From the IMG/VR virus record IMGVR_UViG_3300005573_000055, positions 64,001 to 128,000 of that record: a stretch of DNA of 64,000 nucleotides. One strand, given 5' to 3'. The DNA comes from a virus. Made by a program: the position numbers and the translations under genes. This document shows positions 18,856-45,128 of this stretch, piece after piece. How positions within the stretch are numbered: position 1 is the first letter of the stretch; every line of letters starts with the position of its first letter. Under the pieces are notes generated by a model. The model saw only the letters and a program-made list of their open reading frames with translations. It was not told the DNA's origin and did not search any database.

Positions 18856-19206
18856 TTAAATTTTAGAATATTCAGCAAGGAAGAAGTCAAAATCATTCTC
18901 ATCAAGACTTAGCTGAAACTCCCTGTCAGACTTAAGCTCTGGTCTTTCAGGTCGCCACTTAAGTCTCATAATAAGCATTTTATCGCCCTCTGTAAGATTA
19001 CTTATATTTGCTCTGTTTATTAAAAGCTCAATTCCAGTCCATTGTTTAATCAGTTCTATATTGGCTCTATAACCAATATAGTTTTCGAGCGTTTTGGAAT
19101 TGTAAGCTTCTCTAAGATAGTTTGTAAACTCTTCCTTTGAAATTCTTCGAAGAGCATACACGCCTGGAGAAGGCATCATTGCTGAATTAAGCAGTAAGGT
19201 TTTCAT
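18856..19206 (-). CDS. DUF1874 (STIV B116/YddF, AcrIII-1-like) protein
   Basis: LLNSAMMP..G.Y..RRISKEE...NYIGY...TGIELLINR...LTEGDKMLIMRL..RP; GY in place of the usual GH. Confidence 0.75.
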   Translation of the reverse strand: MKTLLLNSAMMPSPGVYALRRISKEEFTNYLREAYNSKTLENYIGYRANIELIKQWTGIELLINRANISNLTEGDKMLIMRLKWRPERPELKSDREFQLSLDENDFDFFLAEYSKI

Positions 19207-19253
19207 TAGCACTCCTTGTTTGTCTTACAAATATAATAGGCAAAATAATAAGT

Positions 19254-31490: not shown

Positions 31491-31569
31491 AAGTAAGCAA
31501 ATTTTCTCGTGGATTGCTGGTCGAGGGCTATCAGGCAACCCACGCTAGCTATTTCAAACCTGTTTATGC

Positions 31570-32322: not shown

Positions 32323-32342
32323 TGTTACCTCCTTGGTTTTTG

Positions 32343-32591
32343 TTATGGCATTACACTTGCCCTGAGACGGGCTAAGATATCCTTGTATTTTCTCCAGCTT
32401 TCTTTGTAATCATCAGGTATCTGAATCCCGTCGCATATGCTCTGGACTCTGTCTATCTCGTCATACAGCCCTGATTCAGCAAAATTGTTCATGTGGTTTC
32501 GCATTTCGATGATTGTCTCCACGAAGGAGGCCTGAATTGCCTCCCTCGGGGTTAAATACTTTGGTACTAAATCACAGATTGAAGACTTCAC
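32343..32591 (-). CDS. Hypothetical protein
   Basis: Co-oriented ORF with RBS. Confidence 0.5.
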   Translation of the reverse strand: MKSSICDLVPKYLTPREAIQASFVETIIEMRNHMNNFAESGLYDEIDRVQSICDGIQIPDDYKESWRKYKDILARLRASVMP

Positions 32592-32599
32592 AGCCGCTC

Positions 32600-32884
32600 C
32601 TATTTATGTTCTAAAATGAATGTTGGATCTATGTAGGTGTATCTCTCAACATCCTCCAAGCGGACAACGCTGACGTACTCTAGGCCAGGACCTAATTTAA
32701 CTATAGCTTTAGCTCTGTCGGTGTAGCTTTTGATGATTGTGCTCTCTGGTTCAATACCCAGGCTTTCTAATCTGGACATGGCCTTCTGGATTGCAGCTTC
32801 GCGCAATAGGGTATCGTTGTACCTTGCCAGAAAGTCCTGAAGCGGCATTCTGTGCCCTTTGTGAACTACCATTATTTCTGCCAT
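32600..32884 (-). CDS. Hypothetical protein
   Basis: GGAGG RBS. Confidence 0.55.
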   Translation of the reverse strand: MAEIMVVHKGHRMPLQDFLARYNDTLLREAAIQKAMSRLESLGIEPESTIIKSYTDRAKAIVKLGPGLEYVSVVRLEDVERYTYIDPTFILEHK

Positions 32885-33124
32885 TTATTCCTCCGTTATT
32901 TGTTTTATGTGTTCGTTAACCATTCTTGCTAAGCCTTCATGTCTGGGAATAAGCGTAAGCTCCTTCTTCCCGGGGAGATATTGGCTGGCAATTACTGTTC
33001 GGCAGTCATTAATTATCTGACTTGCCGTCTCTCCCTCTTCAACCGAAATAGTGAACTTAATGGTCTCCTGGTGAAATCTTTCCAAGGGAGCTGAAAATTC
33101 GTATTCGATTTGCACAAGTTTCAT
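32885..33124 (-). CDS. Hypothetical protein
   Basis: AGGAGG RBS. Confidence 0.55.
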   Translation of the reverse strand: MKLVQIEYEFSAPLERFHQETIKFTISVEEGETASQIINDCRTVIASQYLPGKKELTLIPRHEGLARMVNEHIKQITEE

Positions 33125-33144
33125 TTTTCCTCCTTTGTTAGTTA

Positions 33145-33573
33145 TTATTTTCTTCCAGCATCAGCAGGTATCTCTCCCAGGCGGGCAGTGTCCCATTTTT
33201 CGAGTCGGAAATCCCCTTGCCTTAGGAGGTTCTTAATTGTCCAGCATGCTTTAAGCGTCTCTTCGTAATGGTTTATATTTTTCTTCTTAGGCTTACCATT
33301 TAGAGCCCAGCTTAAAGCAACCATTGAGTCTGAGAATACGATGGCCTTCTTGAAGCCTTTGGCAATCAGCCATTGGAGCCCGATAATTATTGCCACAAGC
33401 TCCAGGAAGTTGTTCGAATAAGGCTTTTGCGAGTCCCAGCTGTGGACTATACGTCCTCTATATGTCACTTTTGCGCCGCCTAAACCAGGATTGCCGGAGG
33501 ACCAGGCATCTACAGTTATATAGGGGTATTCCTCCCCTTCGGCGGTAATAACAGTTTTTTCCTTAACGATCAT
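33145..33573 (-). CDS. rnhA: Ribonuclease HI family protein
   Basis: ITVDAWSSGNPG, SNNFLELVAI, FSDSMVALSW, KWDT..LGEIPADAGRK. Confidence 0.88.
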   Translation of the reverse strand: MIVKEKTVITAEGEEYPYITVDAWSSGNPGLGGAKVTYRGRIVHSWDSQKPYSNNFLELVAIIIGLQWLIAKGFKKAIVFSDSMVALSWALNGKPKKKNINHYEETLKACWTIKNLLRQGDFRLEKWDTARLGEIPADAGRK

Positions 33574-33588
33574 TACTCCTCCTTGTTT

Positions 33589-33804
33589 TTATTCAACTGA
33601 TAAAGCTAAAGATAGCGGTCTATGCAGCACACTCTGCCCGCAGAATGGACAGATCTCCCTTTCTTCTATCATGTCTGTAAAGACTGTCATTCCGCAGGAT
33701 CTGCATACGATTACTGTTTGCTCTTCGGCGGGATCTTCGATTCTGTCAACGCCGAAAATTTCGTTAATAGAAAACAGTTCTTCCGGGCGGAGAATTATCT
33801 CCAT
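33589..33804 (-). CDS. Small zinc-ribbon protein
   Basis: CRSCG ... CPFCG. Confidence 0.6.
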   Translation of the reverse strand: MEIILRPEELFSINEIFGVDRIEDPAEEQTVIVCRSCGMTVFTDMIEEREICPFCGQSVLHRPLSLALSVE

Positions 33805-34030
33805 AGTAACCTCCTATTTTTTGTTAATAAATTGGTTATTTTATGTGGTGCAAAGAGTAGGCTTTTTTGATGCAGAGCTTACTCTGCAGTCTGCCCTTTG
33901 TGTTTCGGATGGCGCTTGTAGACGGTTTTCGGCGTTATCGGCCTACTCACCTTCTTTGGCAGCGGAATTCTGATCTTGGGTTTTTTGATCTTAGTACCTT
34001 TCATTTGATTATCTCCTATTATGTATAGAG

Positions 34031-34051
34031 AAAGCGGCATTTAGCCGCTTT
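34031..34051. terminator. Hairpin terminator (possibly bidirectional)
   Basis: AAAGCGGC-ATTTA-GCCGCTTT right at the stop of 34051-34497. Confidence 0.55.
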
Positions 34052-34497
34052 TAATCCAAATAATCGTCTAAAGCCTTTTGACGCAGTGGTTCTAAGGCAT
34101 CCATGATTTCGTTGATGCCGTCCCACTGCTCTTCGGCGTAGTTGAACTCTTTGACCCTAAGAGACTGCTTGACTTTTCGGAAAGTCTCCGGGTCAAGCTT
34201 TCCGGAGTAGACCTGCAAAACGGAGGCTGGAACTGGACCGTCTGTGATGCGTAAGCTGAATCTCTCTCTTGGGAACACTCTGTCGGCTGTTGTGTCCCCT
34301 TTGAGGGATACGTCGTGCTGATCTTTAAGCGACGGCCACTTACAGAGAACAACTGCTCTGACAACGTTCTCTGAAATGATGTCTGTGATAACGAACTCGA
34401 GGTTTTTCTCGGGATATTTCCAGATCTGGCCTTCTTCAAGGCGATCTGGTTTGTTGAGTAAATACTCAAGATAAGCGTGTTCTTCAAAGTGTGTCAC
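34051..34497 (-). CDS. Hypothetical protein
   Basis: 148 aa; AGGAGG RBS. Confidence 0.6.
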   Translation of the reverse strand: MTHFEEHAYLEYLLNKPDRLEEGQIWKYPEKNLEFVITDIISENVVRAVVLCKWPSLKDQHDVSLKGDTTADRVFPRERFSLRITDGPVPASVLQVYSGKLDPETFRKVKQSLRVKEFNYAEEQWDGINEIMDALEPLRQKALDDYLD

Positions 34498-34700
34498 AAT
34501 TCCTCCTTTAATAATTGTTGCAGGTATAATTTATCACTTCTGCGCATGGCCCTTCTTATCTTGGCCTTTAGGTGACCTTTGGGCCTGCTTTTGTTGTTGC
34601 GCTCCTTTATCCAGCGATATTCTTCAGTCAGGCGTGCTGGATAATGGAGCTGTTCATTTTTAACCATTAGTTCCTCCATTTTAATTGTCTTTGTCTGCAA
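34494..34700 (-). CDS. Small basic protein
   Basis: Co-oriented ORF. Confidence 0.45.
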   Translation of the reverse strand: MQTKTIKMEELMVKNEQLHYPARLTEEYRWIKERNNKSRPKGHLKAKIRRAMRRSDKLYLQQLLKEEL

Positions 34701-34862
34701 TTTCAGTGATTAATGTGAACAAAGCGAACAGGAATATCATTCCGAACTCGTATGCCATAATAGCGGGTCTATCGTCCCCCGTTTCGTTACAGTATATGGC
34801 AACTGAAAATATGATAACCAGTGATAACAGAGCAAGGAAGATGAGTGATTTCATTTTACCTC

Positions 34863-35147
34863 CTATGATAATTTGATTTTAATTAAGATATATTCAACCG
34901 CTTTGCCGTCCGGAGCAACAGCGGTTCTTAGTTCGTAGTAGTTTTTGAGTTCGAATGAGTCGAGGATCTCAGTTTTGTCCATAACCTTCTTGTTTAAGGG
35001 AACTAATTCGATAAGATAGGCTTCCCAAACTTCGCCTTCTCTGGCGAGTTTGGCATTTATAAAGGCTGGGAAGATCACCTTCCCGTCTTGAAATATCGGA
35101 GCGCTTGAGAGCTTCCCGTACTTATCTTTTGTTACTTTGAGTTCCAT
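34863..35147 (-). CDS. Truncated duplicate of the N-terminal domain of 35161-36087
   Basis: MELKVTKDKYGKLSSAPIFQDGKVIFP...EGEVWEA vs MELTITRNKFGELAGSPIFQDGKVIFP...EGEVWEA. Confidence 0.7.
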   Translation of the reverse strand: MELKVTKDKYGKLSSAPIFQDGKVIFPAFINAKLAREGEVWEAYLIELVPLNKKVMDKTEILDSFELKNYYELRTAVAPDGKAVEYILIKIKLS

Positions 35148-35160
35148 TTTTATCTCCTTG

Positions 35161-36087
35161 TTAGTTTATAATCTCTTCTGAGAGGACGGTTTCTCTCTCT
35201 AAGCAGTGTGAAACCTCTTTGAATTCGAGGATTTCACTGCTTAATTCTTTGAAACCTTCTCTTTCGAGGGGTAAATTGTGATCAGCTGTCCATTTATATC
35301 CAATCTGTGCTATCTTGGTATAGCAATAGCGACGTGAGTCAACTCTTGACTCACGGACATTATCCTCACTGTTAGAATATTTTGGAGCGTAGCTGCTCCA
35401 TCTTTCAATAATTCTCTTTACTTTTCTGACATCGATGTCCAGCTCAAACTCTTTGGATTCGACTCTTCTTGACAGAAATTCCTTCTCTACCACCTCGAAG
35501 GTTGTAGTGTCTTTTACGAAGCCGCGGTATTCAGCGACTTCCTTCTCTATATTCTCCCAGACTTTTAATTTCTTTGCATTCAAGTCGACTTCGCAGTTGT
35601 AGTCGCTGCTGAAGACCTTTCCGGTTGCGACTACTCTGATGATTTTGTTGTCAATAGACATAACTCTCTTGTATGTCTCTATTTCTTTTTTGTATTTATC
35701 GGCGATTTCAACAGGCAGATCTTTCCAATAGAAGTAGTAATTCGTATGGTCTGCCTTTACTTTCCCACCGACTCTGTAATATTTGATGTATGAAACCCCC
35801 TCTAGTATTCTTACATATCCATTAGAATAATAGTGCTCTTTGATTTGAGGGGCCGGCAATTCGGGAAGGATCAAGCGAAATACTCCCTTGAACATAGGTT
35901 TCCCTTTGCGGTCAACCTTGTTTAAGGGAATGAGCTTTACCAGTTCGGCTTCCCAGACTTCTCCTTCTTTGGCGAGTTCTGGGTTTTCAAAGACCGGGAA
36001 GATTACCTTTCCGTCCTGAAAGATTGGAGAGCCTGCGAGCTCTCCGAACTTATTTCTAGTTATTGTTAATTCCATTTTCATCTCCAT
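35161..36087 (-). CDS. Hypothetical protein
   Basis: 308-aa ORF downstream of a motif-bearing intergenic region. Confidence 0.65.
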   Translation of the reverse strand: MEMKMELTITRNKFGELAGSPIFQDGKVIFPVFENPELAKEGEVWEAELVKLIPLNKVDRKGKPMFKGVFRLILPELPAPQIKEHYYSNGYVRILEGVSYIKYYRVGGKVKADHTNYYFYWKDLPVEIADKYKKEIETYKRVMSIDNKIIRVVATGKVFSSDYNCEVDLNAKKLKVWENIEKEVAEYRGFVKDTTTFEVVEKEFLSRRVESKEFELDIDVRKVKRIIERWSSYAPKYSNSEDNVRESRVDSRRYCYTKIAQIGYKWTADHNLPLEREGFKELSSEILEFKEVSHCLERETVLSEEIIN

Positions 36088-36131
36088 ATGTTAGTTCACG
36101 GTCTCGGAGTGGTAGATATCCACTCCTTTGC

Positions 36132-36210
36132 CAATACTAATGTAGTTCGATTGACAGTGTGTGTTAATGCAGGCGTGTGTGTGTCCTGGCGGCTTTCCTT
36201 TTAGCCGCCG
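36132..36210 (-). promoter_or_regulatory. Repeated (AC)n...AATCGAACTACATTAG motif, copy 1
   Basis: + caatactaatgtagttcgatt followed by GT tracts and a GGCGGCT/AGCCGCC hairpin; 20/21 identical to 36505-36525. Confidence 0.65.
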
Positions 36211-36243
36211 CGTGATTGGAATTATCCGCCAGCACATAAAAAA

Positions 36244-36468
36244 CTATTTCAGCAGATATTCCTTTTCGATCTCGTTTGTCTTCTCGTCGTAGCGGTATAC
36301 CCATACTACCGCATCGTCGCTGACAAGTCCGGATTGGATGCGCTCCTTGAGGAGCTCGTAATCTTCCTCCGTCATTAGGATGCCGGAGGCGTCGTGAATG
36401 CCACCGTCGGCGATGAAGAATACGCCGTAAGGACGGGGATCTTGTGAAAATATTGATAGTAAGTCCAT
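36244..36468 (-). CDS. Hypothetical protein paralogous to the C-terminal half of 19928-20341
   Basis: PYGVF...SGILMTEEDYELLKERIQSG...IEKEYLL. Confidence 0.65.
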   Translation of the reverse strand: MDLLSIFSQDPRPYGVFFIADGGIHDASGILMTEEDYELLKERIQSGLVSDDAVVWVYRYDEKTNEIEKEYLLK

Positions 36469-36504
36469 GTTACTCCTCCTATTTTAAGTGTTGTTTATTA
36501 TCAT

Positions 36505-36607
36505 CAATGCTAATGTAGTTCGATTAATAGATGCGTGTGTGCTAATGGGAGCGTGTGTGTGTCAATGCGGGCGTGTGTGTGTCGAGGCGGCTCCCCTTTT
36601 AGCCACC
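36505..36607 (-). promoter_or_regulatory. Repeated (AC)n...AATCGAACTACATTAG motif, copy 2
   Basis: + caatgctaatgtagttcgatt followed by GT tracts and a similar hairpin. Confidence 0.65.
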
Positions 36608-36773
36608 GCACGTTCAAAATTACCCCTTAGTGGGGTAATTAAAAAAAATAAATACAATATTCACCCGATGAAAGGTGAATATATGGAAGGCTCATCAGCC
36701 CTCCTCCTTTTGTTTGACTGCCCCACTTTCCCGGGGCTTGGGGTTTTTTAAGGTGGTTTTCTCCACCATCATT

Positions 36774-36822
36774 GCCCCCACGCCAGACTTGAACTGGCTG
36801 CTGGCCCTACCCAGGGTGGGGC
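36774..36822 (-). ncRNA. Anticodon-less tRNA-like element A
   Basis: GCCCCAC-C-CTGG[GTAGGG]CCAG-CA-GCCAG[TTCAAGT]CTGGC-GTGGGGG-C: acceptor-like stem, D-like hairpin, canonical T arm. Confidence 0.75.
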
Positions 36823-36842
36823 GGCAAGGTAGGCAGACGTGA

Positions 36843-37130
36843 CTATTTAATCACGTCGCCTACCTTGTACTCGGGGTTGTGGCTTACTGAAACCACGTAT
36901 CCCCCGAGTTTGGGGTCAAAAACTGCGATGCTGCCGACGGTGTGCGCATACTTATGTATGAGCACTGCGGCTACCGGAAGGGATGCTGGCCCGTTGACTT
37001 TTAGCAACGGGATCCCTTTAATTTCCGGGGCGTTGTCTTTTACAAACTGAACGAGTTCGGCGTTTGTTGCCGGGTCGCCGAACCCGATCGTTAATGTGTC
37101 GTTATTAAATGACATATTGAATAATGCCAT
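36843..37130 (-). CDS. csx3: Csx3/Crn3-family ring-nuclease-like protein
   Basis: LKVNGPASLPVAAVLIHKYAHT...AVFDPKLGGYVVSVSH...KVGDVI, close to the Csx3 signature HKYAHT..AVYDPRLG.VV.SH...GDVI; GGAGG RBS at MALFN. Confidence 0.88.
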   Translation of the reverse strand: MALFNMSFNNDTLTIGFGDPATNAELVQFVKDNAPEIKGIPLLKVNGPASLPVAAVLIHKYAHTVGSIAVFDPKLGGYVVSVSHNPEYKVGDVIK

Positions 37131-37176
37131 GTTAACCTCCTTTTTAAAGTTATTAAATAATAATTTATGATGAATT

Positions 37177-37231
37177 TGGCTCAGGCGGGACTTGAACACC
37201 GCTCTCTCAGGCTTCCAGCAGCCACTGAGCC
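37177..37231 (-). ncRNA. Anticodon-less tRNA-like element C
   Basis: GGCTCAG-T-GGCT[GCTGGA]AGCC-TGAGAGA-GCGG(T)G[TTCAAGT]CCCGC-CTGAGCC-A. Confidence 0.7.
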
Positions 37232-37237
37232 ACCACA

Positions 37238-37630
37238 CAAGCTATCTTAGTAGCTCGATAGCTTGCAGTCTCGCTGATCACCCCTTCCCTTGAGCTCCGA
37301 TGCTACTATCGTTGCTCAAGGTTCCGTCGGGTTTACTCAGCTACCCGAAGCCCAATTAGCGTTACCCAGGACGCGCCACGTGGAGGCTTGGGCTTTTGCG
37401 TCCCACAACATTACTGGCTAAGTGGGACAGCCAGTGTCCGTTATGTGGCTGATCCGTGGAGCATTGCACTCCGGTGAGTGGACGCCACATCGGCCTGCTG
37501 AGGCGAGGCCACACCTTGGGTCTTCGAGCCGCTTGGGCGGAATGGGTCCACGGCTCTGAGACCCATAAACCTATAAGCCAGGCTTAGCCTAGCTTATAGG
37601 CTATTCTTTATCCCCTTAAAGGGACCACAT
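37238..37630 (-). ncRNA. Hairpin/pseudoknot-dense non-coding tract (candidate structured RNA)
   Basis: Perfect 7+7 bp pseudoknot at 37400-37435; stems CCTTGAGC/GCTCAAGG, AAGCTATC/GATAGCTT, CCTATAAGC/GCTTATAGG, ATGTGGC/GCCACAT. Confidence 0.6.
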
Positions 37631-37763
37631 AGACACGGCGGAGGTAGGTTGGTTATATGACCCGGGTTAGGTGGGGTCCGCCGCTGATACATGCGAGCAG
37701 AGCGAATGTAGACTAAGTAGGTATAGCTCTGGCTTCCCGGGTCTGGTTGGTCTTCGCAAGGGA

Positions 37764-38014
37764 GTGTGTGTAGGCGGAGCGGGTACATGGAAGGTTTTAG
37801 CGACCCAGGTTAGGTGGGCACCGCCGGGTACACATGTGAGGTGGGGACGGAGCCATGGATGGTTTTAGCGACCCATGGAGGGGTGGTAGACTGGGGCGTG
37901 TGTGAGGCGGAGCGGAGGTGGGTTGATTTAGGGTCAACAGGTCAGGTTAGGTTGGCCCAGGTTGGTCAGGCTGGACAGGCCTCCGTTGGGGGCGTGTGTG
38001 AGGCGGAGCGGAGG
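37764..38014 (+). repeat. G-rich direct repeats
   Basis: GGGGCGTGTGTGAGGCGGAGCGGAGG at 37893 and 37989 (variant at 37764); CATGGAWGGTTTTAGCGACCCA at 37786 and 37854. Confidence 0.75.
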
Positions 38015-38023
38015 CCTGTCTTG

Positions 38024-38389
38024 CTAGTCTAACTCGCTCCAGTCGAAGCCGTTAATTCTAACTACCGGCTTCTTCTTTGTAATCGCTGAAGCGAGTTTCC
38101 TAGCGTTGCAATACGCTGGCCGTGCACCACAATTGACGTGCAGCACTTCGGCAACGATCTCTTTCCAGTTATTCCTCTCTTTGAGACGTTGCACGTACCA
38201 GTGCTCCACGTTGGGTCGGGTATCTTTGATGCCACTGCCCCATTTGATCTGGATAGCATAAGCTATCCCATCAATTATGACAATGACATCAATCTTGGCC
38301 TCGTGGTCAAGGCGTTTATGTGTAATCACCTCGAATCCACTATTCCTGAGCGCATCGACAATCATGCGCTCGAGGATGAGACCATTCAT
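38024..38389 (-). CDS. PD-(D/E)xK restriction-endonuclease-fold protein
   Basis: LERMIVDALRNSGFEV...DHEAKIDVIV...AIQIK. Confidence 0.7.
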   Translation of the reverse strand: MNGLILERMIVDALRNSGFEVITHKRLDHEAKIDVIVIIDGIAYAIQIKWGSGIKDTRPNVEHWYVQRLKERNNWKEIVAEVLHVNCGARPAYCNARKLASAITKKKPVVRINGFDWSELD

Positions 38390-38880
38390 AATGCCCTCCC
38401 GTTGTGGTTTAGCCAGCTACGATCTGGCTCGGGCAGCTTCTTATAGCCCTCCTGTGGGTCGAATTGATAGATCTCTACATTGAAATGATGGAGACCTATC
38501 AACATCCCTATCAGGGCCGATAGACCAATCGGACCGCTGAGGACTAATTTTATCTTGCAATTTTGGTTTTGTGCCATAGCACTGTAAACCTCTGTTGCAA
38601 GTTTTTTATAGTCCTCGTCGGTCACTAACATTGGTCTACCGAGCACGAGGTTGACGTCTATCAGCGTGTCAAGTTCGCCAAAGTAGGCTTTGACAGCTTC
38701 GCTAACAGGACGTCCTACCTGCAGGGCTATAATATAGTCCTTGCCGCCTTCATTGGCATATTTTTTCTTCTTGGCAATCTTGGTCTGAGACCAGATTTTA
38801 ACAGTGATTGCCAAGGAGACTAATGCCAACAAAGGCTCGGCAATAGCCCAAGCCTGGGAGATGAATTCAAAGAGGTTCAT
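38386..38880 (-). CDS. N-terminal TM helix plus short SAVED-like domain
   Basis: IKLVLSGPIGLSALIGMLIG...VEIYQFD...Y resembles the C-terminal SAVED signature (IHLFxxGPxxLAxxLG...VYx...Y). Confidence 0.65.
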   Translation of the reverse strand: MNLFEFISQAWAIAEPLLALVSLAITVKIWSQTKIAKKKKYANEGGKDYIIALQVGRPVSEAVKAYFGELDTLIDVNLVLGRPMLVTDEDYKKLATEVYSAMAQNQNCKIKLVLSGPIGLSALIGMLIGLHHFNVEIYQFDPQEGYKKLPEPDRSWLNHNGRAL

Positions 38881-38932
38881 GACTGCCTCCCGATGGCTAA
38901 ACTTAGAACTGGTATAACGGTCTATAGAATGG

Positions 38933-39754
38933 CTAAACTATCCTGCCTCCGTTATACCAGTACATGAACCCTCCTGGAGCCCATTTTGTCCTAAGCCCCA
39001 TTCTCAGTTCAGGGAACTTTCTGGAAACCTCATCAAGATATTCCATAGTGGTCTCCAGCGGCAATGGTCGCCAATCAATTCCAGACACGGGCTTGTATAC
39101 CCTGACTGTCCAGAATTTATTGTCGACATTGCCATGCTTAACAACCATCTCTGCGATGTGCAGGAAATCATCCAAGGTGGTTGTAGAAAATACGCATGTG
39201 CGTACATCTACAAGCACACCTTTATTGCTTAAGATCTCCTGAACACGCAGGGAGTTGTTGAGCATTTTTTCTCCCTGACCGTTTCTGAGGCCAGCGCGCA
39301 TATTGAATTCTGCGCCGTCTGCGGCCTTAAGATCAATTGCTGCATAATCCAAATACGGCAGCAGCATTTCAACAAATTTAGGACTGCTGCCATTATGCGC
39401 AATTGAAATCTTCTGGCCACGTTCAGCACAGAAGCGCGCTATATCCATAGAGTCTTTGATAAAGACACAAGGATCGCCTCCAGAAAGACGAATCCTTTCG
39501 CCTTTATCTAAGGACTCCTGGATCAGAGAGAATATCTCTGAGGCTTTATATCTTCCGGCAGTGATTATGTCACCTTTGTCGGTGACAAACTGCCCGTCGC
39601 GTTTGCAATATGGGCAGTGGAAGTTACACCTGCCGAAAGAGATAATCCTCATCATCTCTATTTCCCTACCAAATAACTTGAGGAAATAGGCCGGTCGCAC
39701 TTCTGCAGCCGGCTTTCCTCCGTAGGGAATGAGAGTGAGTATTCTCTCTTTCAT
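38933..39754 (-). CDS. Radical SAM enzyme (NrdG/PflA activase-like)
   Basis: CNFHCPYC, LSGGDP, HNGS, DYAAIDLKA, VDVRT; GGAGG RBS at MKERIL. Confidence 0.9.
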   Translation of the reverse strand: MKERILTLIPYGGKPAAEVRPAYFLKLFGREIEMMRIISFGRCNFHCPYCKRDGQFVTDKGDIITAGRYKASEIFSLIQESLDKGERIRLSGGDPCVFIKDSMDIARFCAERGQKISIAHNGSSPKFVEMLLPYLDYAAIDLKAADGAEFNMRAGLRNGQGEKMLNNSLRVQEILSNKGVLVDVRTCVFSTTTLDDFLHIAEMVVKHGNVDNKFWTVRVYKPVSGIDWRPLPLETTMEYLDEVSRKFPELRMGLRTKWAPGGFMYWYNGGRIV

Positions 39755-39813
39755 GTGGCCTCCAGGCTGGAGGTTCATGTTCATTGATTTATTTTATCTA
39801 TTATCTACTATCC

Positions 39814-42576
39814 TTAATCCTCCTTTCTTAATTTAAACTTAACGCTGAAGCCAGTCGGCTTGCCAGTCTTAACACTGATGTAAGGATATACCTCGTCAAC
39901 TCGGTAATATCCTTCATCAATGTTGCGGCATTCATCGCCGACTTTGAACTTCAGCTTCTGACCGCCTACTGAGATGCTAAAGGTCTTTATTTCTTTGCCA
40001 TTAGCATCTCTTTCGGCGGTAATTTCTACGAGTGAATCTCTGTGTTTTGTTCTGGCATTGATGTCCAATGCTTCGAACATTTCACAGAGATTCAGCTCGT
40101 CAGCGTATACCCGCACCTCGAACGTTGGCAGTGCGGCATTAAAGAAGTTGCTTGTGGCAATATACCACTTCAACTCCTTGGTGCCGCCAATGCCAAGCTC
40201 GCAGAGCACCTCAAGGAGTACCTGCCATACGCCATTGATGAACAGGTATCCTTGAGATTTGCGCTTCTGCGGGTCATTGCTGGTTGCTATGTATTCGAGG
40301 ACCGAATATACAACAGCCTTTTGGTCCTCTTTACATAGTGCCATGAACTGCAAAGAATACTTCTTATTAATTTCTCGTATCTTTGCAATTCTGGCATCAA
40401 CGTCTCGCTTGAGCTCTTCGATTTTATTAAGAGCTGCAATTTCGCCCTTATAATCGAAGTAGCTCCTGAGTTTTCTGCCGTATTTAGCGAGACGCTCAGC
40501 AATGGCCTGCTGCTGGCGCACACTCAGGTGCGGGTACACCTGGTCGGCAATACCAGCCTGCAGCTTGCCAAAGACCTCTTTGACAATTCCGTTCATATTT
40601 CTGACGAAATTGTCAATTATGGAGTCTTTGACAATCCGAGAATCCCCTTCCTCTCTGAAGAATCGAGGAGCAAGGAATGCAAAGCATTGAGACTGCTTGA
40701 TTGCATCAATGCAAGCCTCAACCTTTACCGCCTGCTCTTCATATCCTTCAGCTGAACCCTTCTGGACTCTATCAATAATGGGTTCAAACTGGAAGGAATT
40801 CTCCTGCAGGGTCTGGTAGAGGGCCATGAGATCCTTGTCTTTGTTGCCAAAGACGAAGATCTCGACCTTTAGGGCAGCCTTAAGCATCTCAACATTGGCT
40901 GCGCGGCCAATGATGTATGCTTTGCCCGCGAAGTCTCTAACAGATTGTAATAGTTTTTCATCTTCTGTTAGAGTTGGCCCGATAGCTTTGATAGCTGTGG
41001 CGGTAAGTGTATCTACAAGACCGCTTACAGCCATGAAAGCTTTGGCCACATCTGCGGGCAGGTTGCCCTTAGGTCCGGCTGCCTGAGGAGCTTCGGCTTT
41101 AGCCTTAGCTTCCCCATCAAGAGGTGTTTCGGCAGCTGGTACCCACTCTACATTACTCCAACCAGCTTTGCGAACAATAGAATATTCGCCAAGCTGATTT
41201 GGATTTCTGTAGAGCAGATACTTGCCTCTGCCCTTCTTGATGAGGACAAAGCTATCGTCGAAATCAGGACCGCCGTGTCGGGGTTTGAGTCTGAGATACT
41301 CATCCCAGCCAACGCACACGTTGTTCTGATCGACAATAACTCTGCCTTCAGGCAGCCTTCCGAAGAATACCTTGCCATCTTCGACTTTAACGATAGATGT
41401 AAGGTATCTTCTTTTGGCCCCTGGCACGAAGACTCTGGGCCATTGGGACTCATCGGCTTTGCCGGTGCCCCATTTTGGCCCATAGAACTTCTTGCCGACC
41501 AGCCGAATAACGTCCATGACCAGAGGTCTAAAGACGCTCCAGTCTACTCCGGCTTTGATGAACTCTTTGAGTCTCCACCCGCTACTGCCAAGTGGATTGA
41601 GCTCATCTTCTTCCGGATCAACGTTGTCCGGCATTGTCTCTTCGGCATCGCCGTCGTCGATGCTGAGGATGATCTCGTTAAATTTCTCACGATCGGTGAG
41701 AGCATTAACAATATATCTCACCGTCTCACCGAGATATTTAACGAGTTTTTCGGCCCTCAGCTGACCAACTGCCAATAGATTGAGTGCAGATTGCACATCA
41801 ATCATGACGTGGTCGTTGCCGTGGACCTCCTCAGCAATCGCCCAGACAACATCACGAGCTTTGACGCCGTGGTCTTTGCACCACTGAGCGTTAATGGCAA
41901 GCTCGCGTTTGATGTTGCTTTCGGCGATATAAATATCGTTAACAGGGACTTTGTTGGAAACAACAATGTGTCCCTTAACGAATTTATCACCGAGCAACAT
42001 CGTGATGCTGCCTCGACGGCGAACGCCGAGTAGCGCTGCGGCGCCGCTGCCAGCAACTACCTGGCCGTCTAAGGCTATGTAACCAGGTATATACTTAATA
42101 TTAATATACTCTGGTATAGCCTTGAGGCCTTTGGCCGAAGATAGCCTCAACAGTCGGCCGATTCTCTTTCCAGCCGTCTGTTTGTTGGCATCTTCTTTGG
42201 CCTTAATCGGTAGCTGCATCAGCTTTCCAGCACTGTCAAATATTTTGACAATGTACAGATCTGTATCTTTGTGATAACAGATCGTACTATTGTCAAAATG
42301 ATTTGCAATGCTGTCAAGCTGCGGCTTGGTGTCATTGCCGATAGTCGAGTGTTCAACTATCGTCAAGACCCAGCCTTCAGCAAAAGCATCTATAAATCCT
42401 GGTCTGAGATCAGGATTATAGAACTTTTGCTGAACTGGCAGCGCTCCGATCAATTCCTTTTCGGCAGCTAAGATGGCTTGCTTGCTTTCTCCGTAGAGAT
42501 AAGCAGTGAAGCCATCCTGATAGTTGCCGATTAGGAATGCCTTAACTGTCATGGCAGCCTCCTTCATGCTTGCCAT
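39814..42576 (-). CDS. YonO/cellular-RdRP-like single-chain two-barrel polymerase with atypical DFDD loop
   Basis: GKRIGRLLRLSS, LDGQVVAGS, KFVKGHIVV, IYIAESNIK, RVFVPG, HGGPDFDDSF, LLYRNPN, IGRAAN, IIDRVQKG parallel RdRP/YonO motifs. Confidence 0.72.
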   Translation of the reverse strand: MASMKEAAMTVKAFLIGNYQDGFTAYLYGESKQAILAAEKELIGALPVQQKFYNPDLRPGFIDAFAEGWVLTIVEHSTIGNDTKPQLDSIANHFDNSTICYHKDTDLYIVKIFDSAGKLMQLPIKAKEDANKQTAGKRIGRLLRLSSAKGLKAIPEYINIKYIPGYIALDGQVVAGSGAAALLGVRRRGSITMLLGDKFVKGHIVVSNKVPVNDIYIAESNIKRELAINAQWCKDHGVKARDVVWAIAEEVHGNDHVMIDVQSALNLLAVGQLRAEKLVKYLGETVRYIVNALTDREKFNEIILSIDDGDAEETMPDNVDPEEDELNPLGSSGWRLKEFIKAGVDWSVFRPLVMDVIRLVGKKFYGPKWGTGKADESQWPRVFVPGAKRRYLTSIVKVEDGKVFFGRLPEGRVIVDQNNVCVGWDEYLRLKPRHGGPDFDDSFVLIKKGRGKYLLYRNPNQLGEYSIVRKAGWSNVEWVPAAETPLDGEAKAKAEAPQAAGPKGNLPADVAKAFMAVSGLVDTLTATAIKAIGPTLTEDEKLLQSVRDFAGKAYIIGRAANVEMLKAALKVEIFVFGNKDKDLMALYQTLQENSFQFEPIIDRVQKGSAEGYEEQAVKVEACIDAIKQSQCFAFLAPRFFREEGDSRIVKDSIIDNFVRNMNGIVKEVFGKLQAGIADQVYPHLSVRQQQAIAERLAKYGRKLRSYFDYKGEIAALNKIEELKRDVDARIAKIREINKKYSLQFMALCKEDQKAVVYSVLEYIATSNDPQKRKSQGYLFINGVWQVLLEVLCELGIGGTKELKWYIATSNFFNAALPTFEVRVYADELNLCEMFEALDINARTKHRDSLVEITAERDANGKEIKTFSISVGGQKLKFKVGDECRNIDEGYYRVDEVYPYISVKTGKPTGFSVKFKLRKED

Positions 42577-42600
42577 GCAGTTTTTGGCTTCTCTTCTATT

Positions 42601-43392
42601 TTAGAAGGACATCAAGCTTGGTCTTTCGCCAAGCTCTTCGAGCTTGCGAAGACTAGCTTGATATGTTTCCTTTAAGTATGCTAATGTCTCCTTGTATTGG
42701 GCAACAAAGTCTCGCTTCATCTTACGGGCGAGACTGTTGCCAAATTCCTTTTTGAAATGGGCCGTTTTGTATTTAATATATTTGGCCCAATTTTTGATCT
42801 TTTTCCGGAAATATTTAACATCCCGGAAAATTTCTTTGTATTCTTTTAACCAAATCTTTTCGGCTTTTTTAGCCTTTTTGATTTGGTCGAATAATTTAGC
42901 TGCAGCATCCATAATGGTAAGATGCTTCTTACCGATTATGTCTACTGCCGTCCATGCGGATTTGGCACCGACTTCTTGTGCCTTCTCTGCATAGAACTTA
43001 TTCAGTTGCTCAATTGATTTATTAAGCTTTTTGAGCACTGAACTGTAAATTCTTTGGGCTCTGGTCAAACCGATACCGCGTACCGTGACCTGACCCTTCA
43101 TTCTTCTAAGGGTGGTGACGGCACGGGCTTTGTCGACCAATTTGTAAGCCCACTGAAGCTTCCAGCTGAGCCTTCTGACTCTAGCTTTCAGCTTTTTTTC
43201 TGTCTCATTCATTTTATTTATTTTGATTTTTGGGGCCCTTGCCACCTTGTCCTTTAGGACGAGGAGCTTGGCGGCCTGGACGGCGCCGGCCCCGACAGTT
43301 TTGTCCCCCGAAGCGGCTCTGTGGAGCACATCACGAGCCTCCTTCAGGGTGGCTGGCAGTTCTACCAGCCAATCCTTTTTAATTTTTTTCAT
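42601..43392 (-). CDS. Highly basic Lys/Arg-rich helical protein
   Basis: Very high K/R content; start moved to MKKIKK with GAGG RBS. Confidence 0.7.
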   Translation of the reverse strand: MKKIKKDWLVELPATLKEARDVLHRAASGDKTVGAGAVQAAKLLVLKDKVARAPKIKINKMNETEKKLKARVRRLSWKLQWAYKLVDKARAVTTLRRMKGQVTVRGIGLTRAQRIYSSVLKKLNKSIEQLNKFYAEKAQEVGAKSAWTAVDIIGKKHLTIMDAAAKLFDQIKKAKKAEKIWLKEYKEIFRDVKYFRKKIKNWAKYIKYKTAHFKKEFGNSLARKMKRDFVAQYKETLAYLKETYQASLRKLEELGERPSLMSF

Positions 43393-43399
43393 GATTTCC

Positions 43400-43720
43400 T
43401 CAAATTTTTGCTTGCAATACACCGGCGGTTTTTGTATATTGCAAGCGGTTTTGGTTTTTACCAAACCGCCCTTAGCCGGGTAGCGTGTTTAGGCACGCTG
43501 CCCGACACATCTAATTGAATTTAGCGTCCCAATTAGCAAGGACGGTGCGTTGAAAAAGCAAGTCGCACGCTTGCCCTGTCAAACTCTACGGCACTGACAG
43601 GCATGCCCTTGTTGATTTGGCGCCACGAACCAGGCTCAACAAGCCAAGCCTGAGCAAAGCAGGAAGCGCGCATCGGTGGCACACCTCGCCGAAGCGGGTG
43701 CTCATGCGTGCTGCAATTAT
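43400..43720 (-). ncRNA. Structured leader/ncRNA upstream of the basic protein-polymerase operon
   Basis: Stems GCTTGCAATA/TATTGCAAGC, GCGGTTT/AAACCGC, CCTGTCA/TGACAGG, CTCAGGCT/AGCCTG; pseudoknot at 43511-43544. Confidence 0.55.
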
Positions 43721-43770
43721 TTTTATTCCCCGTGTGTGTTATATTACACAGGGAACAATTCTAAAAAAAA

Positions 43771-43830
43771 TAGTTCGATTCAAGTGTGTGTGTGTGGCGT
43801 GTGTGTGATGCACGCTACGCATACACATAA
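43771..43830 (-). promoter_or_regulatory. (AC)n...AATCGAACTA motif, copy 3
   Basis: + tagttcgatt followed by GT-dinucleotide tracts. Confidence 0.6.
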
Positions 43831-43861
43831 AAGCGATTCAATCGTTAATCAACTAATTGAA

Positions 43862-45058
43862 TCACTTTTTTATTAACTTGAGGGCCGCCTTGAGACCCTC
43901 AAGAATACCGTCGACATCGCGGACATCCACTCTGTCGACGTATAGGATTTTCCCATCTCCTACAGTACGCCATCTTGCACGTGGAGTACTGTATTTATAA
44001 GCATAATTATCCAAGTAAATCCATGTGGACTTACCGGATAATTTATTGTCTTCGAGATGGGAAATCCCATCATAGTCGCCAATGTAGAGGATATAGTCGA
44101 ATTGACTATATATCTCACGCTGGCGACTTTCCTCATCAACGTCTTTTTCTATTATGCTGCCATTTGAATTTGGCGCATAATATACTGAGACGTTGATTTC
44201 CTTGGCGAAATTAGCTAATTCTTGGGCGATCTTTTTAGTTGCGCCCGAGAATGTTACACAGGACCCGCTCTCATCGTTGGTGATGAGAATCTTTGGTCCG
44301 TCGTTCTTTCGCCAAGGATCATATACTGCGGGCAACGGATTTCTATGCGTTGCCCGCAGTATTTCATACTTTAGAGGGTTGATCTTTTCTTCCTCAATTG
44401 TGGGTAACCCTCTCAAACCCCACAATTGGGCCAAAATTTCAGCACAAGCCGCCTCTGTGCGGCGATCGATTTCAATGTCGCCGCCGCCACCAACACATGT
44501 GGCCGGCGACTTGTGCTTATGAATTAATTTTATTTTTGCATCGGGATTTCCATCAAGCTGTTTTTTGACAGCTTCCCGATGCTTTTTAATTAATTCTTGC
44601 TTCTTCCGTCTCTTATAAGAGACGAGAAGAGCTAAATTTTTATTGAGGGCTTCTTGTGCCTTTTCATAATCCTGAGCGTCTTTACGCCCAAGATTATCAG
44701 GCTTTGAAGCCCTCTTTTTGGGCGAGGAGGGCTTGTCTTTGCCTTTGCCCTCCTCTTTCCCATTTCGAATCTCTTGATTAGCGACGCTATCGCCCCCATG
44801 ATAGTCGTCGCTAATTTTTTCAATAGCGTCTTGCACCTCTGCTTGCATCTGGTGCAGACGCTTTTCTGAAACTTTGTAGAGTTTTCCACCGCCCAGCTTC
44901 AGCGCCTCATCCATTGTGAGGTCCCTGCAGAAGCCAGGGCCATATATAAAACTATGGACACCATTTTCATATAAGGTGCCCTTTTTCAGATCCGGTACGT
45001 ATTCATAATGATATACTTTACCGGATCTATCTGTAATCAAAAAAGTGATTACTTTCAT
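43862..45058 (-). CDS. VWA-like (MIDAS) partner of the MoxR ATPase
   Basis: LITNDESGSC (DxSxS), LYIGDYDG; charged linker; follows MoxR. Confidence 0.7.
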   Translation of the reverse strand: MKVITFLITDRSGKVYHYEYVPDLKKGTLYENGVHSFIYGPGFCRDLTMDEALKLGGGKLYKVSEKRLHQMQAEVQDAIEKISDDYHGGDSVANQEIRNGKEEGKGKDKPSSPKKRASKPDNLGRKDAQDYEKAQEALNKNLALLVSYKRRKKQELIKKHREAVKKQLDGNPDAKIKLIHKHKSPATCVGGGGDIEIDRRTEAACAEILAQLWGLRGLPTIEEEKINPLKYEILRATHRNPLPAVYDPWRKNDGPKILITNDESGSCVTFSGATKKIAQELANFAKEINVSVYYAPNSNGSIIEKDVDEESRQREIYSQFDYILYIGDYDGISHLEDNKLSGKSTWIYLDNYAYKYSTPRARWRTVGDGKILYVDRVDVRDVDGILEGLKAALKLIKK

Positions 45059-45074
45059 ATTTTCTCCACTCTTA

Positions 45075-45123
45075 GCCCCCACGCCCGACTTGAACGGGCT
45101 GCTGGCCTGATCCAGGGTGGGGA
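45075..45123 (-). ncRNA. Anticodon-less tRNA-like element B
   Basis: TCCCCAC-C-CTGG[ATCAGG]CCAG-CA-GCCCG[TTCAAGT]CGGGC-GTGGGGG-C; compensatory A-T to C-G change in the T stem relative to element A. Confidence 0.78.
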
Positions 45124-45128
45124 ACCAT

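What the first reader, a model, noticed from the sequence alone, without database searches (positions are those of the whole stretch)
38386..38880. Effector-less TM plus half-SAVED protein: possible cyclic-oligonucleotide sponge
Seen: an N-terminal TM helix and ~120 aa carrying the C-terminal SAVED-like signature, shorter than a full SAVED and without a nuclease/TIR effector. It sits between a radical SAM gene and a PD-(D/E)xK nuclease gene, which it overlaps. Established: SAVED domains bind CBASS and type III CRISPR signals. Inference: a homodimeric sponge or ring nuclease, or a sensor paired with the adjacent nuclease. With Csx3 and DUF1874, this would be a third second-messenger-directed protein in the genome.
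Basis: inference. Interest (0 to 1): 0.72.

Follow-up and report, generated by a model that had tools for sequence, protein, structure and literature searches.

The report
Membrane-anchored half-SAVED sensor with radical-SAM partner
A phage gene encodes a small membrane-anchored protein carrying one half of a SAVED nucleotide-signal sensor; it is not a stand-alone protein, because its family sits in an operon with a small radical SAM enzyme and next to a Csx3-type ring nuclease in both bacteria and phages, a pairing I found no paper describing in the full-text library searched.

Summary
Window 38386-38880 (-) is an intact 164-aa gene with a GGAGG ribosome-binding site. It encodes an N-terminal membrane helix, a polybasic stretch and one CARF-like unit, i.e. 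half a SAVED domain. Pfam SAVED scores above its threshold, PADLOC SAVED4--SAVED gives 8e-19, and the AF2 model aligns to the C-terminal halves of Cap5, Cap14 and CalpL SAVED at Z 9-10.

"Effector-less" is misleading. Among 41 distinct homologous loci, an orthologous small radical SAM gene lies directly beside it on the same strand in 18. A HEPN (DUF4145) gene takes that place in 4 and a caspase gene in 1. A divergent Csx3-like gene lies within 1.5 kb in 7 loci, and a canonical csx3 follows in this phage and in a syntenic contig. A TM-less relative sits inside a CRISPR-cas locus. Ten of ten host MAGs show no Cas10, and nine of ten no CD-NTase.

Best reading (0.45): a membrane-bound receptor for a cyclic oligoadenylate, probably cA4, serving as the sensor subunit of a split sensor-effector module.

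Another first-stage note in this scan (e1-5881838) had already listed the same gene trio. I rate it a new variant of a known kind.

The parts
38386..38880 (-). TM-half-SAVED gene, 164 aa
   Evidence: ORF. Pfam SAVED 30.7 bits against a gathering score of 26.2. PADLOC SAVED4--SAVED 8e-19. All 32 family-invariant residues are present.
38791..38859 (-). Membrane helix (residues ~8-30) with family-conserved W11, E15, P16, W30, followed by a polybasic stretch
   Evidence: Hydropathy, conservation, AF2 helix 3-39.
38416..38763 (-). Single CARF-like (half-SAVED) domain, residues 40-155. The most conserved motifs are ALQVGRPVSEAVK (after strand 1) and LVLSGPxGL (after strand 4).
   Evidence: VIA-align Z 10.2, rmsd 2.8 A over 112 residues to Cap5 261-383. 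Z 9.0 to CalpL 376-496 and Z 9.0 to the N-terminal half of AcrIII-2. Conservation.
38886..38890 (-). GGAGG ribosome-binding site of the half-SAVED gene
   Evidence: Sequence read.
38933..39784 (-). Small radical SAM enzyme (283 aa, CNFHCPYC, GGDP), the conserved operon partner
   Evidence: Pfam Radical_SAM 41.8 bits. Orthologues at 41-64% identity lie adjacent to the half-SAVED gene in 18 of 41 distinct loci.
38024..38389 (-). 121-aa PD-(D/E)xK-like (Mrr/NERD-like) protein; its start overlaps the half-SAVED stop by ATGA
   Evidence: Sub-threshold Pfam hits, overlap, homologue at 36% identity in the syntenic contig L060.
36843..37238 (-). Csx3/Crn3-family protein (candidate cA4 ring nuclease) about 0.8 kb downstream in the same orientation
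   Evidence: Pfam Cas_csx3 43.5 bits, PADLOC Csx3 7e-17, 53% identical copy at the same relative place in L060.
39814..42576 (-). 920-aa protein of unknown family, 30 bp upstream of the radical SAM gene and part of the syntenic block
   Evidence: 27% identity over 770 aa to the 863-aa protein that abuts the radical SAM gene in L060. No family found.
18856..19212 (-). DUF1874/STIV_B116-like protein (AcrIII-1 family) elsewhere in the phage
   Evidence: Pfam PF08960 49.1 bits against a gathering score of 26.

Best explanation
The protein is a membrane-inserted receptor for a nucleotide second messenger. A single N-out/C-in helix, with conserved Trp, Glu-Pro and Trp residues, tethers one CARF-like unit (half a SAVED domain) to the cytoplasmic face of the membrane. 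One unit cannot form the two-fold ligand pocket that a full SAVED or a CARF dimer provides. Two copies would therefore have to pair, which would favour a two-fold-symmetric ligand. The recurrent Csx3-type and DUF1874-type neighbours point to cyclic tetra-adenylate (cA4). Ligand-driven pairing or stacking of the domains would then switch on the output. That output could be the membrane helices themselves (pore or depolarisation, as in Cam1, Cap1 and Cap14), the co-translated partner enzyme, or both. In this phage and in most relatives the partner is a small radical SAM enzyme. In close relatives it is a membrane-anchored HEPN RNase or a caspase. In this phage there is also a translationally coupled PD-(D/E)xK-like nuclease. 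The Csx3 gene downstream would clear the signal. The phage appears to carry a captured cellular sensor-effector-off-switch module inside a GC-rich accessory island. Shown here: the fold, the conserved motifs, the membrane helix, the operon partners and the neighbour families. Inferred: the ligand, dimerisation, activation of the partner, and what the phage gains.
For: Fold and family.
- The profile of the family matches both halves of the AcrIII-2 SAVED separately, as expected for a single repeat unit.
- The two best-conserved motifs lie after strands 1 and 4, where CARF domains bind ligand (established knowledge). There are 32 invariant columns in 23 sequences.

Partners:
- The radical SAM gene is on the same strand, 0-177 bp away, in either order. 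It is adjacent in 18 of 41 distinct loci, and in 12 of the 27 loci with at least 900 bp on both flanks. HEPN is adjacent in 4. One locus has a caspase.
- The HEPN partners have the consensus R-x2-G-N-x-A-x-H, with G, N and H invariant, and a hydrophobic N-terminus. DUF4145 is a HEPN family (PMC3710099).
- The sensors paired with these different enzymes are 54-65% identical to the window protein, so one sensor serves interchangeable enzymes.

Link to cA4:
- The 98-aa neighbour family is Csx3-like: PADLOC Csx3 1.3e-5; Cas_csx3 is the only Pfam family hit; Z 6.0, rmsd 1.9 A over 70 aa to AfCsx3. It lies within 1.5 kb in 7 distinct loci.
- A canonical csx3 follows in the window and in L060.
- DUF1874 lies just upstream in L021.
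- The type III-associated 'Unk_01' small protein is present in L003 and L006.
- A TM-less 110-aa relative lies between a Cas_APE2256 CARF gene and cas1.

Mostly cellular distribution: CPR, Campylobacterota, Gammaproteobacteria and Flavobacteriales MAGs.

Precedents for TM+CARF/SAVED pores: Cap1 preprint; Cam1 and Csx23 (PMC11229360); 3TM-SAVED and Cap14 structures.
Against: - No known maker of the signal is nearby. There is no Cas10 (Csm1 or Cmr2 models) above cut-off in 10 of 10 host MAGs, no SMODS CD-NTase in 9 of 10, and neither in the phage. MAGs may be incomplete.
- The radical SAM family is about four times larger than the half-SAVED family (374 clusters). It often occurs without the half-SAVED, including in 7 of 8 IMG/VR contigs, so the enzyme does not strictly need this sensor.
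- In the syntenic contig L060 the sensor gene has a frame change and an altered strand-1 loop, while the radical SAM, nuclease and csx3 genes are intact.
- A phage that carries two ring-nuclease families has an obvious anti-CRISPR interest, and it is unclear why it would keep a cA4-activated effector.
- No binding, dimerisation or membrane insertion has been shown.
Confidence: 0.45

Rival explanations
1. Counter-defence. The protein would be a membrane-tethered cA4 sponge or ring nuclease that, together with Csx3 and the DUF1874 protein, removes the host's type III CRISPR (or CBASS) signal. The cellular 'host' loci would then be integrated mobile elements carrying the same anti-signal kit.
For: - Viral SAVED AcrIII-2 degrades cA4 in a site shared between stacked SAVED units (PMC12751052).
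- Csx15 CARF proteins sponge or slowly cleave cA4 (PMC13148439).
- The model aligns to AcrIII-2 at Z 9.0, rmsd 2.4 A over 94 aa.
- The phage carries Csx3 and DUF1874.
- The radical SAM family also sits beside DUF1874 or Csx3 in viral contigs.
- Host MAGs lack Cas10.
- The TM-less relative sits beside a CARF effector, the usual place for a ring nuclease.
Against: - As far as I know, the ring nucleases and sponges characterised so far are soluble. Here the membrane helix is conserved down to a Glu-Pro pair.
- Close relatives are translationally coupled to a HEPN RNase or a caspase, for which a sponge has no use.
- No close relatives were found in IMG/VR or in GenBank phages, although the pattern scan finds only close relatives; one divergent viral copy exists.
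- The catalytic residues of AcrIII-2 and CalpL could not be mapped.
Confidence: 0.22
2. A self-contained signalling pair. The radical SAM enzyme would make, or convert, a nucleotide-derived small molecule, and the half-SAVED would be its membrane receptor or effector. This would work without Cas10 or a CD-NTase. The Csx3-like and DUF1874-like neighbours would degrade that molecule.
For: - Known cOA synthases are absent from 10 host genomes and from the phage.
- The operon pairing is tight, in either gene order.
- The enzyme's nearest curated families act on nucleotides or activate proteins: NrdG2 59.6 bits, MoaA GTP 3',8-cyclase 42 bits, viperin 33.6 bits. All are far below their cut-offs, so this is a distinct family. 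The nearest solved structures are MoaA and a viperin-like enzyme.
Against: - HEPN and caspase replace the radical SAM enzyme beside nearly the same sensor, which places the enzyme in the effector slot, not the generator slot.
- Csx3 and DUF1874 families are known only as cA4 phosphodiesterases (established knowledge).
- I know of no radical SAM enzyme that makes a CARF or SAVED ligand.
Confidence: 0.15
3. No signalling ligand is involved. The protein would be a membrane anchor, scaffold or assembly/regulatory subunit for its partner enzyme, and the CARF-like fold would serve only for protein-protein contact.
For: - The same W-x-x-x-E-P membrane helix is fused to unrelated C-terminal domains beside the same radical SAM family: L062:7402-8022, L063:5309-5887, L064:1280-1618.
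- The sensor appears dispensable in L060.
Against: The strongest conservation lies exactly at the two CARF ligand-loop positions. Recurrent ring-nuclease-family neighbours would be unexplained.
Confidence: 0.1

Closest known systems
Cam1 / Cap1 (type III CRISPR TM + CARF or CARF-like effectors) and Csx23
   Same: N-terminal membrane helix or helices with a C-terminal cytoplasmic cOA-binding Rossmann-like domain, small size, and oligomers that bind cA4 on a symmetry axis and depolarise the membrane (Cap1 preprint 10.1101/2025.11.13.688252; PMC11229360).
   Different: Here the domain scores as SAVED rather than CARF. The protein has a conserved partner enzyme gene. It is not next to cas10 in any TM-bearing locus examined. 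No pore activity is known.
CBASS Cap14 / 2TM- and 3TM-SAVED effectors
   Same: TM segment plus SAVED fold. The model aligns to the C-terminal SAVED half of Cap14 (Z 9.2) and of 3TM-SAVED (Z 9.0).
   Different: Those proteins carry a complete two-unit SAVED, bind cGAMP and sit beside a CD-NTase. This protein has one unit, one helix and no CD-NTase neighbour.
AcrIII-2 (viral SAVED ring nuclease, PDB 9r8s)
   Same: Virus-encoded SAVED-fold protein with no fused effector. The family profile matches both halves of AcrIII-2, and the structural match is Z 9.0.
   Different: AcrIII-2 is a soluble 243-aa two-unit SAVED derived from CalpL (PMC12751052). This protein is half as large, membrane-anchored, and paired with a radical SAM gene. 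Its relatives are mostly cellular.
PADLOC/Makarova 'SAVED4' clade (SAVED4--SAVED, SAVED4--SAVED_TM)
   Same: Best sequence models: the 104-position stand-alone model is matched end to end (8e-19), and the TM-fused model is matched at positions 150-276 of 278 (2e-17). The TM-less relative L057 sits in a CRISPR-cas locus.
   Different: These are catalogue entries. I know of no experimental work on them and found none in my searches. The radical SAM, HEPN, caspase and Csx3-like partnerships were not found in the full-text library.
Csm6/Csx1 (CARF-HEPN) and SAVED-CHAT
   Same: The same logic of a cOA sensor coupled to a HEPN RNase or a caspase-like protease.
   Different: In those proteins sensor and effector are fused in one chain. 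Here they are separate adjacent genes, and the sensor is membrane-bound.
Prokaryotic viperins (pVip) and other small radical SAM enzymes
   Same: The partner enzyme has the CxxxCxxC radical SAM core and weak similarity to viperin, MoaA and NrdG.
   Different: Viperin model 33.6 bits against a cut-off of 180, and NrdG2 59.6 against 131. It is a member of none of them.

Membership tests
SAVED domain (Pfam PF18145) | Sequence match to the family model above the curated threshold | tested here: met
   30.7 bits against a gathering score of 26.2, but only profile positions 67-186 of 190. The NCBIfam SAVED model scores 27.5 bits, below its cut-off of 33.
SAVED domain (Pfam PF18145) | Two tandem CARF-like units in one chain forming a pseudo-dimer | tested here: not met
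   Only one alpha/beta unit is present, residues 40-155. It aligns to a single half of Cap5, Cap4, CalpL or AcrIII-2.
CARF/SAVED superfamily fold | Rossmann-like parallel sheet with ligand loops after strands 1 and 4 | tested here: met
   Z 10.2, rmsd 2.8 A over 112 residues to Cap5; Z 8.5 to Csm6 CARF. Conserved GRP and SGP loops.
CARF/SAVED superfamily fold | Binds a cyclic oligonucleotide | not testable with these tools
   Needs binding assays.
SAVED4 clade (PADLOC models) | Full-length match to the clade model | tested here: met
   SAVED4--SAVED E 8.2e-19, positions 2-98 of 104. SAVED4--SAVED_TM E 2.4e-17.
AcrIII-2 viral SAVED ring nuclease | Soluble two-unit SAVED with catalytic R96, K99, H128, S194 shared across stacked units | tested here: inconclusive
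   The architecture differs (one unit plus a TM helix). Catalytic positions could not be mapped reliably from the alignments available.
Cam1/Cap1-type TM-CARF effectors | N-terminal TM helix or helices plus a C-terminal cOA-binding domain | tested here: met
Cam1/Cap1-type TM-CARF effectors | Encoded in or beside a type III CRISPR-cas locus | tested here: not met
   No cas genes were called in any TM-bearing locus. No Cas10 above cut-off in 10 host MAGs. Only the TM-less relative L057 is in a cas locus.
CBASS TM-SAVED effectors (Cap14) | Adjacent CD-NTase gene | tested here: not met
   No SMODS family in the phage or in 9 of 10 host genomes. The single hit is on another contig.
Prokaryotic viperin (for the partner enzyme) | Match to the viperin equivalog model above cut-off | tested here: not met
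   NF038283 33.6 bits against a cut-off of 180. The PADLOC pVip hit at 6e-11 covers only the shared radical SAM core.
Csx3/Crn3 (for the 98-aa neighbour family A2) | Sequence and fold match to Csx3 | tested here: met
   PADLOC Csx3 1.3e-5. Cas_csx3 is the only Pfam family hit, for 2 of 6 members at E 0.002, below gathering. Z 6.0, rmsd 1.9 A over 70 aa, 20% identity to AfCsx3. The support is moderate; the Z is tied with SAVED halves.

The most novel reading that the evidence does not exclude
The radical SAM - TM-half-SAVED - Csx3-like module would be a nucleotide-signalling system that needs neither Cas10 nor a CD-NTase. The radical SAM enzyme would make the messenger by radical chemistry, and the half-SAVED would read it at the membrane. 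The system would be shared by CPR bacteria, other bacteria and large phages.
Probability: 0.12. Interest if true: 0.9.

Novelty: new variant of a known kind. Interest (0 to 1): 0.62.

Why it matters
TM-CARF and TM-SAVED effectors are a known class, and the SAVED4 clade is catalogued. Four things appear to be undescribed in the full-text library I searched.
- A sensor reduced to a single repeat unit on one membrane helix.
- A sensor that serves separately encoded, interchangeable enzymes: radical SAM, HEPN or caspase.
- A radical SAM enzyme in the slot normally held by effectors of cyclic-oligonucleotide signalling, with Csx3- or DUF1874-type genes beside it.
- The whole set occurring in genomes with no recognisable signal synthase, many of them CPR bacteria, and on large phages.

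If the radical SAM enzyme is a cOA-controlled effector, that adds a new chemistry to CRISPR/CBASS-type immunity. If the set is counter-defence, it would be a membrane-tethered anti-signal device. Either way, a few standard binding and challenge assays can test it.

Tried and rejected
- Close relatives were not found in GenBank phages (tblastn and megablast) or in IMG/VR by pattern scan. The scan sees only close relatives; a divergent viral copy turned up through the radical SAM gene.
- For the Csx3-like call on the 98-aa neighbours, a PDB sequence search found nothing, and hhalign against the window Csx3 aligned the expected region but at about 1% probability. PADLOC, Pfam and the fold comparison settled it.
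- Viperin, MoaA, QueE and NrdG membership of the partner enzyme was rejected on curated cut-offs.
- I considered whether the radical SAM enzyme is a glycyl-radical-type activase that modifies the sensor. I see no glycyl-radical-like motif among the invariant glycines of the family (my own reading), and this would not explain the HEPN and caspase partners.
- I considered the large neighbouring proteins (740-1230 aa) and the phage 920-aa protein as the missing signal synthase. No family or fold lead emerged beyond C-terminal GNAT or methyltransferase domains in the cellular proteins. The DFDD motif of the 920-aa protein is not kept in its L060 homologue by a simple pattern search.
- The BFVD fold search gave only uncharacterised small viral proteins.
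- The genome behind L057 is not held.
- Full-text searches for radical SAM together with SAVED, CARF or Csx3 found no description of this module. The Makarova 2020 CARF/SAVED classification could not be read.
Full report
**1. What is at the coordinates**

Window 38386-38880 (-) is an intact ATG-started ORF of 164 aa. GGAGG lies 7 nt before the start, and a second Shine-Dalgarno-like GGGAGGG lies inside its 3' end, ahead of the next gene, whose ATG overlaps the stop as ATGA. The record is an IMG/VR virus contig of 155,523 bp, CheckV completeness 88%. The gene lies in a 20-kb stretch of higher G+C (0.42-0.51 against 0.33-0.37 in the flanks) in which all long ORFs (110 aa or more) except two short shadow ORFs run leftward.

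**2. The protein**

- Residues ~8-30 are moderately hydrophobic and are followed by KIAKKKKY, which places the rest of the protein in the cytoplasm.
- In an alignment of 23 homologues, W11, E15, P16 and W30 of this helix are invariant or nearly so. That is unusual for a plain anchor.
- Some homologues carry a second, more hydrophobic helix in front.
- Residues 37-148 match Pfam SAVED above the gathering score, but only over the last two thirds of the model.
- The PADLOC model SAVED4--SAVED (104 positions) is matched end to end at 8e-19, and SAVED4--SAVED_TM at 2e-17.
- An AlphaFold2 model (pLDDT 83) shows one long helix (3-39) and one alpha/beta unit.
- Foldseek lists SAVED structures with probability near 1.
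- VIA-align gives Z 10.2 (rmsd 2.8 A, 112 residues) to Cap5 residues 261-383, Z 9.2 to Cap14, Z 9.0 to CalpL 376-496, Z 9.0 to the N-terminal half of AcrIII-2, and Z 7-8.5 to CARF domains of Csm6, Cad1, Can2 and ring nucleases.
- The family profile hits both halves of AcrIII-2 separately.

The best-conserved motifs, ALQVGRPVSEAVK after strand 1 and LVLSGPxGL after strand 4, lie where CARF domains hold their ligand (the location rule is established knowledge).

**3. The family and where it lives**

- A word-indexed search found 23 proteins of 155-183 aa.
- An exhaustive profile search found 93 clusters at 50% identity, most of them 100-200 aa long.
- In species genomes it occurs in MAGs of Moraniibacteriota, Magasanikbacteria, Saccharibacteria, Campylobacterota/Sulfurimonas, Gammaproteobacteria and Flavobacteriales.
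- Close relatives were not found in GenBank phages or in IMG/VR by pattern scan.
- Two phage-like contigs with the gene emerged later through the partner enzyme.

**4. It is not effector-less**

I collected 41 distinct loci, de-duplicated at 97% identity.

- A small radical SAM gene, orthologous across loci (41-64% identity, CNFxCPYC), lies on the same strand 0-177 bp away, upstream in some loci and downstream in others. This holds for 18 of 41 loci, and for 12 of the 27 with at least 900 bp on both flanks.
- In 4 loci a DUF4145 protein of 352-480 aa takes that place, with 4- or 8-bp junctions in three of them. DUF4145 is a HEPN family (PMC3710099). These partners have the consensus R-x2-G-N-x-A-x-H, with G, N and H invariant, and a hydrophobic N-terminus.
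- In one locus the partner is a caspase-domain protein (Peptidase_C14, 70 bits).
- The sensors in these loci are 54-65% identical to the phage protein. Essentially the same sensor is therefore combined with different enzymes. This is the logic behind the name SAVED, except that the parts are separate genes.
- The PD-(D/E)xK-like neighbour is absent from all cellular loci. It is kept at 36% identity in the syntenic contig L060.

**5. Links to cyclic tetra-adenylate**

- A 98-aa protein family recurs within 1.5 kb of the sensor in 7 distinct loci. By eye it resembled Csx3. PADLOC Csx3 gives 1.3e-5. Cas_csx3 is the only Pfam family hit, for 2 of 6 members at E 0.002. Its AF2 model (pLDDT 90) superposes on A. 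fulgidus Csx3 with rmsd 1.9 A over 70 residues at 20% identity, Z 6.0. That Z is middling and tied with SAVED halves, so I call the assignment moderately supported.
- In the phage a canonical Csx3 gene follows 0.8 kb downstream. L060 has the same order: AAA_5 ATPase - ~400 aa - 863 aa - radical SAM - sensor - small TM protein - nuclease - 158 aa - csx3, at 27-64% identity.
- A DUF1874/STIV_B116 gene lies just upstream of the sensor in a Saccharibacteria chromosome. It also lies beside the same radical SAM family in L062, L064 and viral contig L072.
- A small protein known to PADLOC as 'Unk_01, sometimes fused to CARF' is present in two loci.
- A TM-less 110-aa relative (31% identity) overlaps the end of a Cas_APE2256 CARF gene and precedes cas1, with a RAMP gene upstream.

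Csx3 and DUF1874 are cA4 phosphodiesterases (established knowledge; AcrIII-1 is cited in PMC12751052). A homodimer of one CARF-like unit has two-fold symmetry. cA4 is therefore the most likely ligand. This is an inference.

**6. The difficulty**

- None of ten host MAGs has a Cas10 above cut-off with the Csm1 or Cmr2 models. Nine of ten have no SMODS CD-NTase.
- The phage has neither.
- The MAGs are small (0.6-2.7 Mb) and may be incomplete, but the result is uniform. The source of any signal is therefore unknown.
- The radical SAM family is larger than the sensor family (374 clusters at E below 1e-10) and often occurs without it: 7 of 8 IMG/VR contigs lack the sensor.
- Beside that enzyme, other proteins carry the same W-x-x-x-E-P membrane helix fused to unrelated cytoplasmic domains.
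- In L060 the sensor gene changes frame inside an A-run, and its strand-1 loop reads GRGEVAAAM. This may be decay, a change of specificity or a read error.
- A TrmB-like regulator gene lies within 4 kb in 13 loci, usually convergent with a 740-1230-aa protein ending in a GNAT or methyltransferase domain. Their role is open.

**7. Mechanism**

My best reading (0.45) is a membrane-bound receptor that pairs on binding cA4 or a similar two-fold-symmetric nucleotide. It then drives an output through its own helices, through the co-translated enzyme, or both. Csx3 would act as the off-switch. The phage copy would be a captured cellular module.

The AcrIII-2 and Csx15 precedents, the phage's two ring-nuclease genes and the missing Cas10 speak for it. 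The conserved membrane helix, the HEPN and caspase partners and the mostly cellular distribution speak against it.
- A self-contained system in which the radical SAM enzyme makes the ligand (0.15) would explain the missing synthase. It fits poorly with HEPN and caspase occupying the same slot.
- A ligand-free scaffold (0.10) fits the swappable C-terminal domains but not the conserved ligand loops.

**8. Comparison and novelty**

- The closest characterised proteins are the TM-CARF effectors Cam1 and Cap1, Csx23, and the TM-SAVED effector Cap14.
- The closest catalogue entry is the SAVED4 clade.
- The protein fails the defining two-unit architecture of SAVED. It also fails the CRISPR or CD-NTase adjacency of those effector families.
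- Its partner enzyme fails the viperin, MoaA and NrdG cut-offs.
- Full-text searches found no paper linking radical SAM enzymes with SAVED, CARF or Csx3 in such a module.

I rate it a new variant of a known kind. Another first-stage note of this scan (e1-5881838) had already listed the same gene trio.

**9. Limits**

Neighbour counts rest on my own ORF calls and on HMMs built from the first loci. Some contigs are short, so absences are weak evidence.

Noticed in passing
window 28000-48000: A compositional island (G+C 0.42-0.51 against 0.33-0.37 in the flanks) in which all long ORFs (110 aa or more) except two short shadow ORFs run leftward. The block AAA_5 ATPase (45129-45986) - 406 aa - 287 aa - 920 aa - radical SAM - sensor - nuclease - csx3 is syntenic with metagenome contig L060 at 27-64% protein identity.
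   Followed up: partly
L060:6824-7306: In the syntenic contig the half-SAVED gene changes reading frame inside an A-run between the membrane helix and the domain. Its conserved GRPVSEAVK loop reads GRGEVAAAM. The radical SAM, nuclease and csx3 genes are intact.
   Followed up: partly
L066:7001-9949 (= L074, IMG/VR contig of 176,653 bp): A large phage-like contig with a fused multi-subunit RNA polymerase gene. It carries the radical SAM gene, then a TnpB/IS605 insertion, then a divergent 152-aa TM-half-SAVED (profile E 1e-24).
   Followed up: partly
L062:7402-8022, L063:5309-5887, L064:1280-1618: Proteins beside the same radical SAM family that share the W-x-x-x-E-P membrane helix but carry unrelated cytoplasmic domains of about 60-130 aa with no Pfam match. 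A conserved 180-197-aa protein accompanies two of them.
   Followed up: partly
L013:401-697 and five other loci (alignment A2): A 98-aa family in CPR and other MAGs that is a divergent Csx3 (H-x3-H, D-G-R, terminal H). It falls below Pfam's threshold and so is probably unannotated in public records.
   Followed up: yes
L057:3490-8598: A CRISPR-cas locus fragment with a RAMP gene, a Cas_APE2256 CARF gene, an overlapping TM-less 110-aa half-SAVED gene, and cas1.
   Followed up: partly
L001, L003, L006, L015, L022, L024, L025 (2-4 kb from the sensor): Mutually related proteins of 740-1230 aa with a C-terminal GNAT or SAM-methyltransferase domain, usually convergent with a TrmB-like regulator gene. 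The TrmB-like gene lies within 4 kb of the sensor in 13 loci. Their function is unknown.
   Followed up: partly
L019, L032, L047, L048, L049: A DEAH/HA2-type helicase of about 660 aa recurs a few kb from the two-helix subgroup of the sensor family.
   Followed up: no
window 37239-38023: A 785-bp G+C-rich stretch without a credible ORF between the nuclease gene and csx3. Other first-stage notes call it a structured RNA. Rfam found nothing at gathering score anywhere in the window.
   Followed up: no
window 18856-19212 (-): The DUF1874/STIV_B116-like protein is confirmed by Pfam (49.1 bits). The claimed Tyr-for-His change was not checked.
   Followed up: partly
window 15653-16783, 30433-30843, 33145-33573, 46907-47782: An HNH_repeat homing-endonuclease-associated protein, an SSB, an RNase H-like protein and a LuxR/GerE-type regulator, identified while surveying the window.
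   Followed up: no
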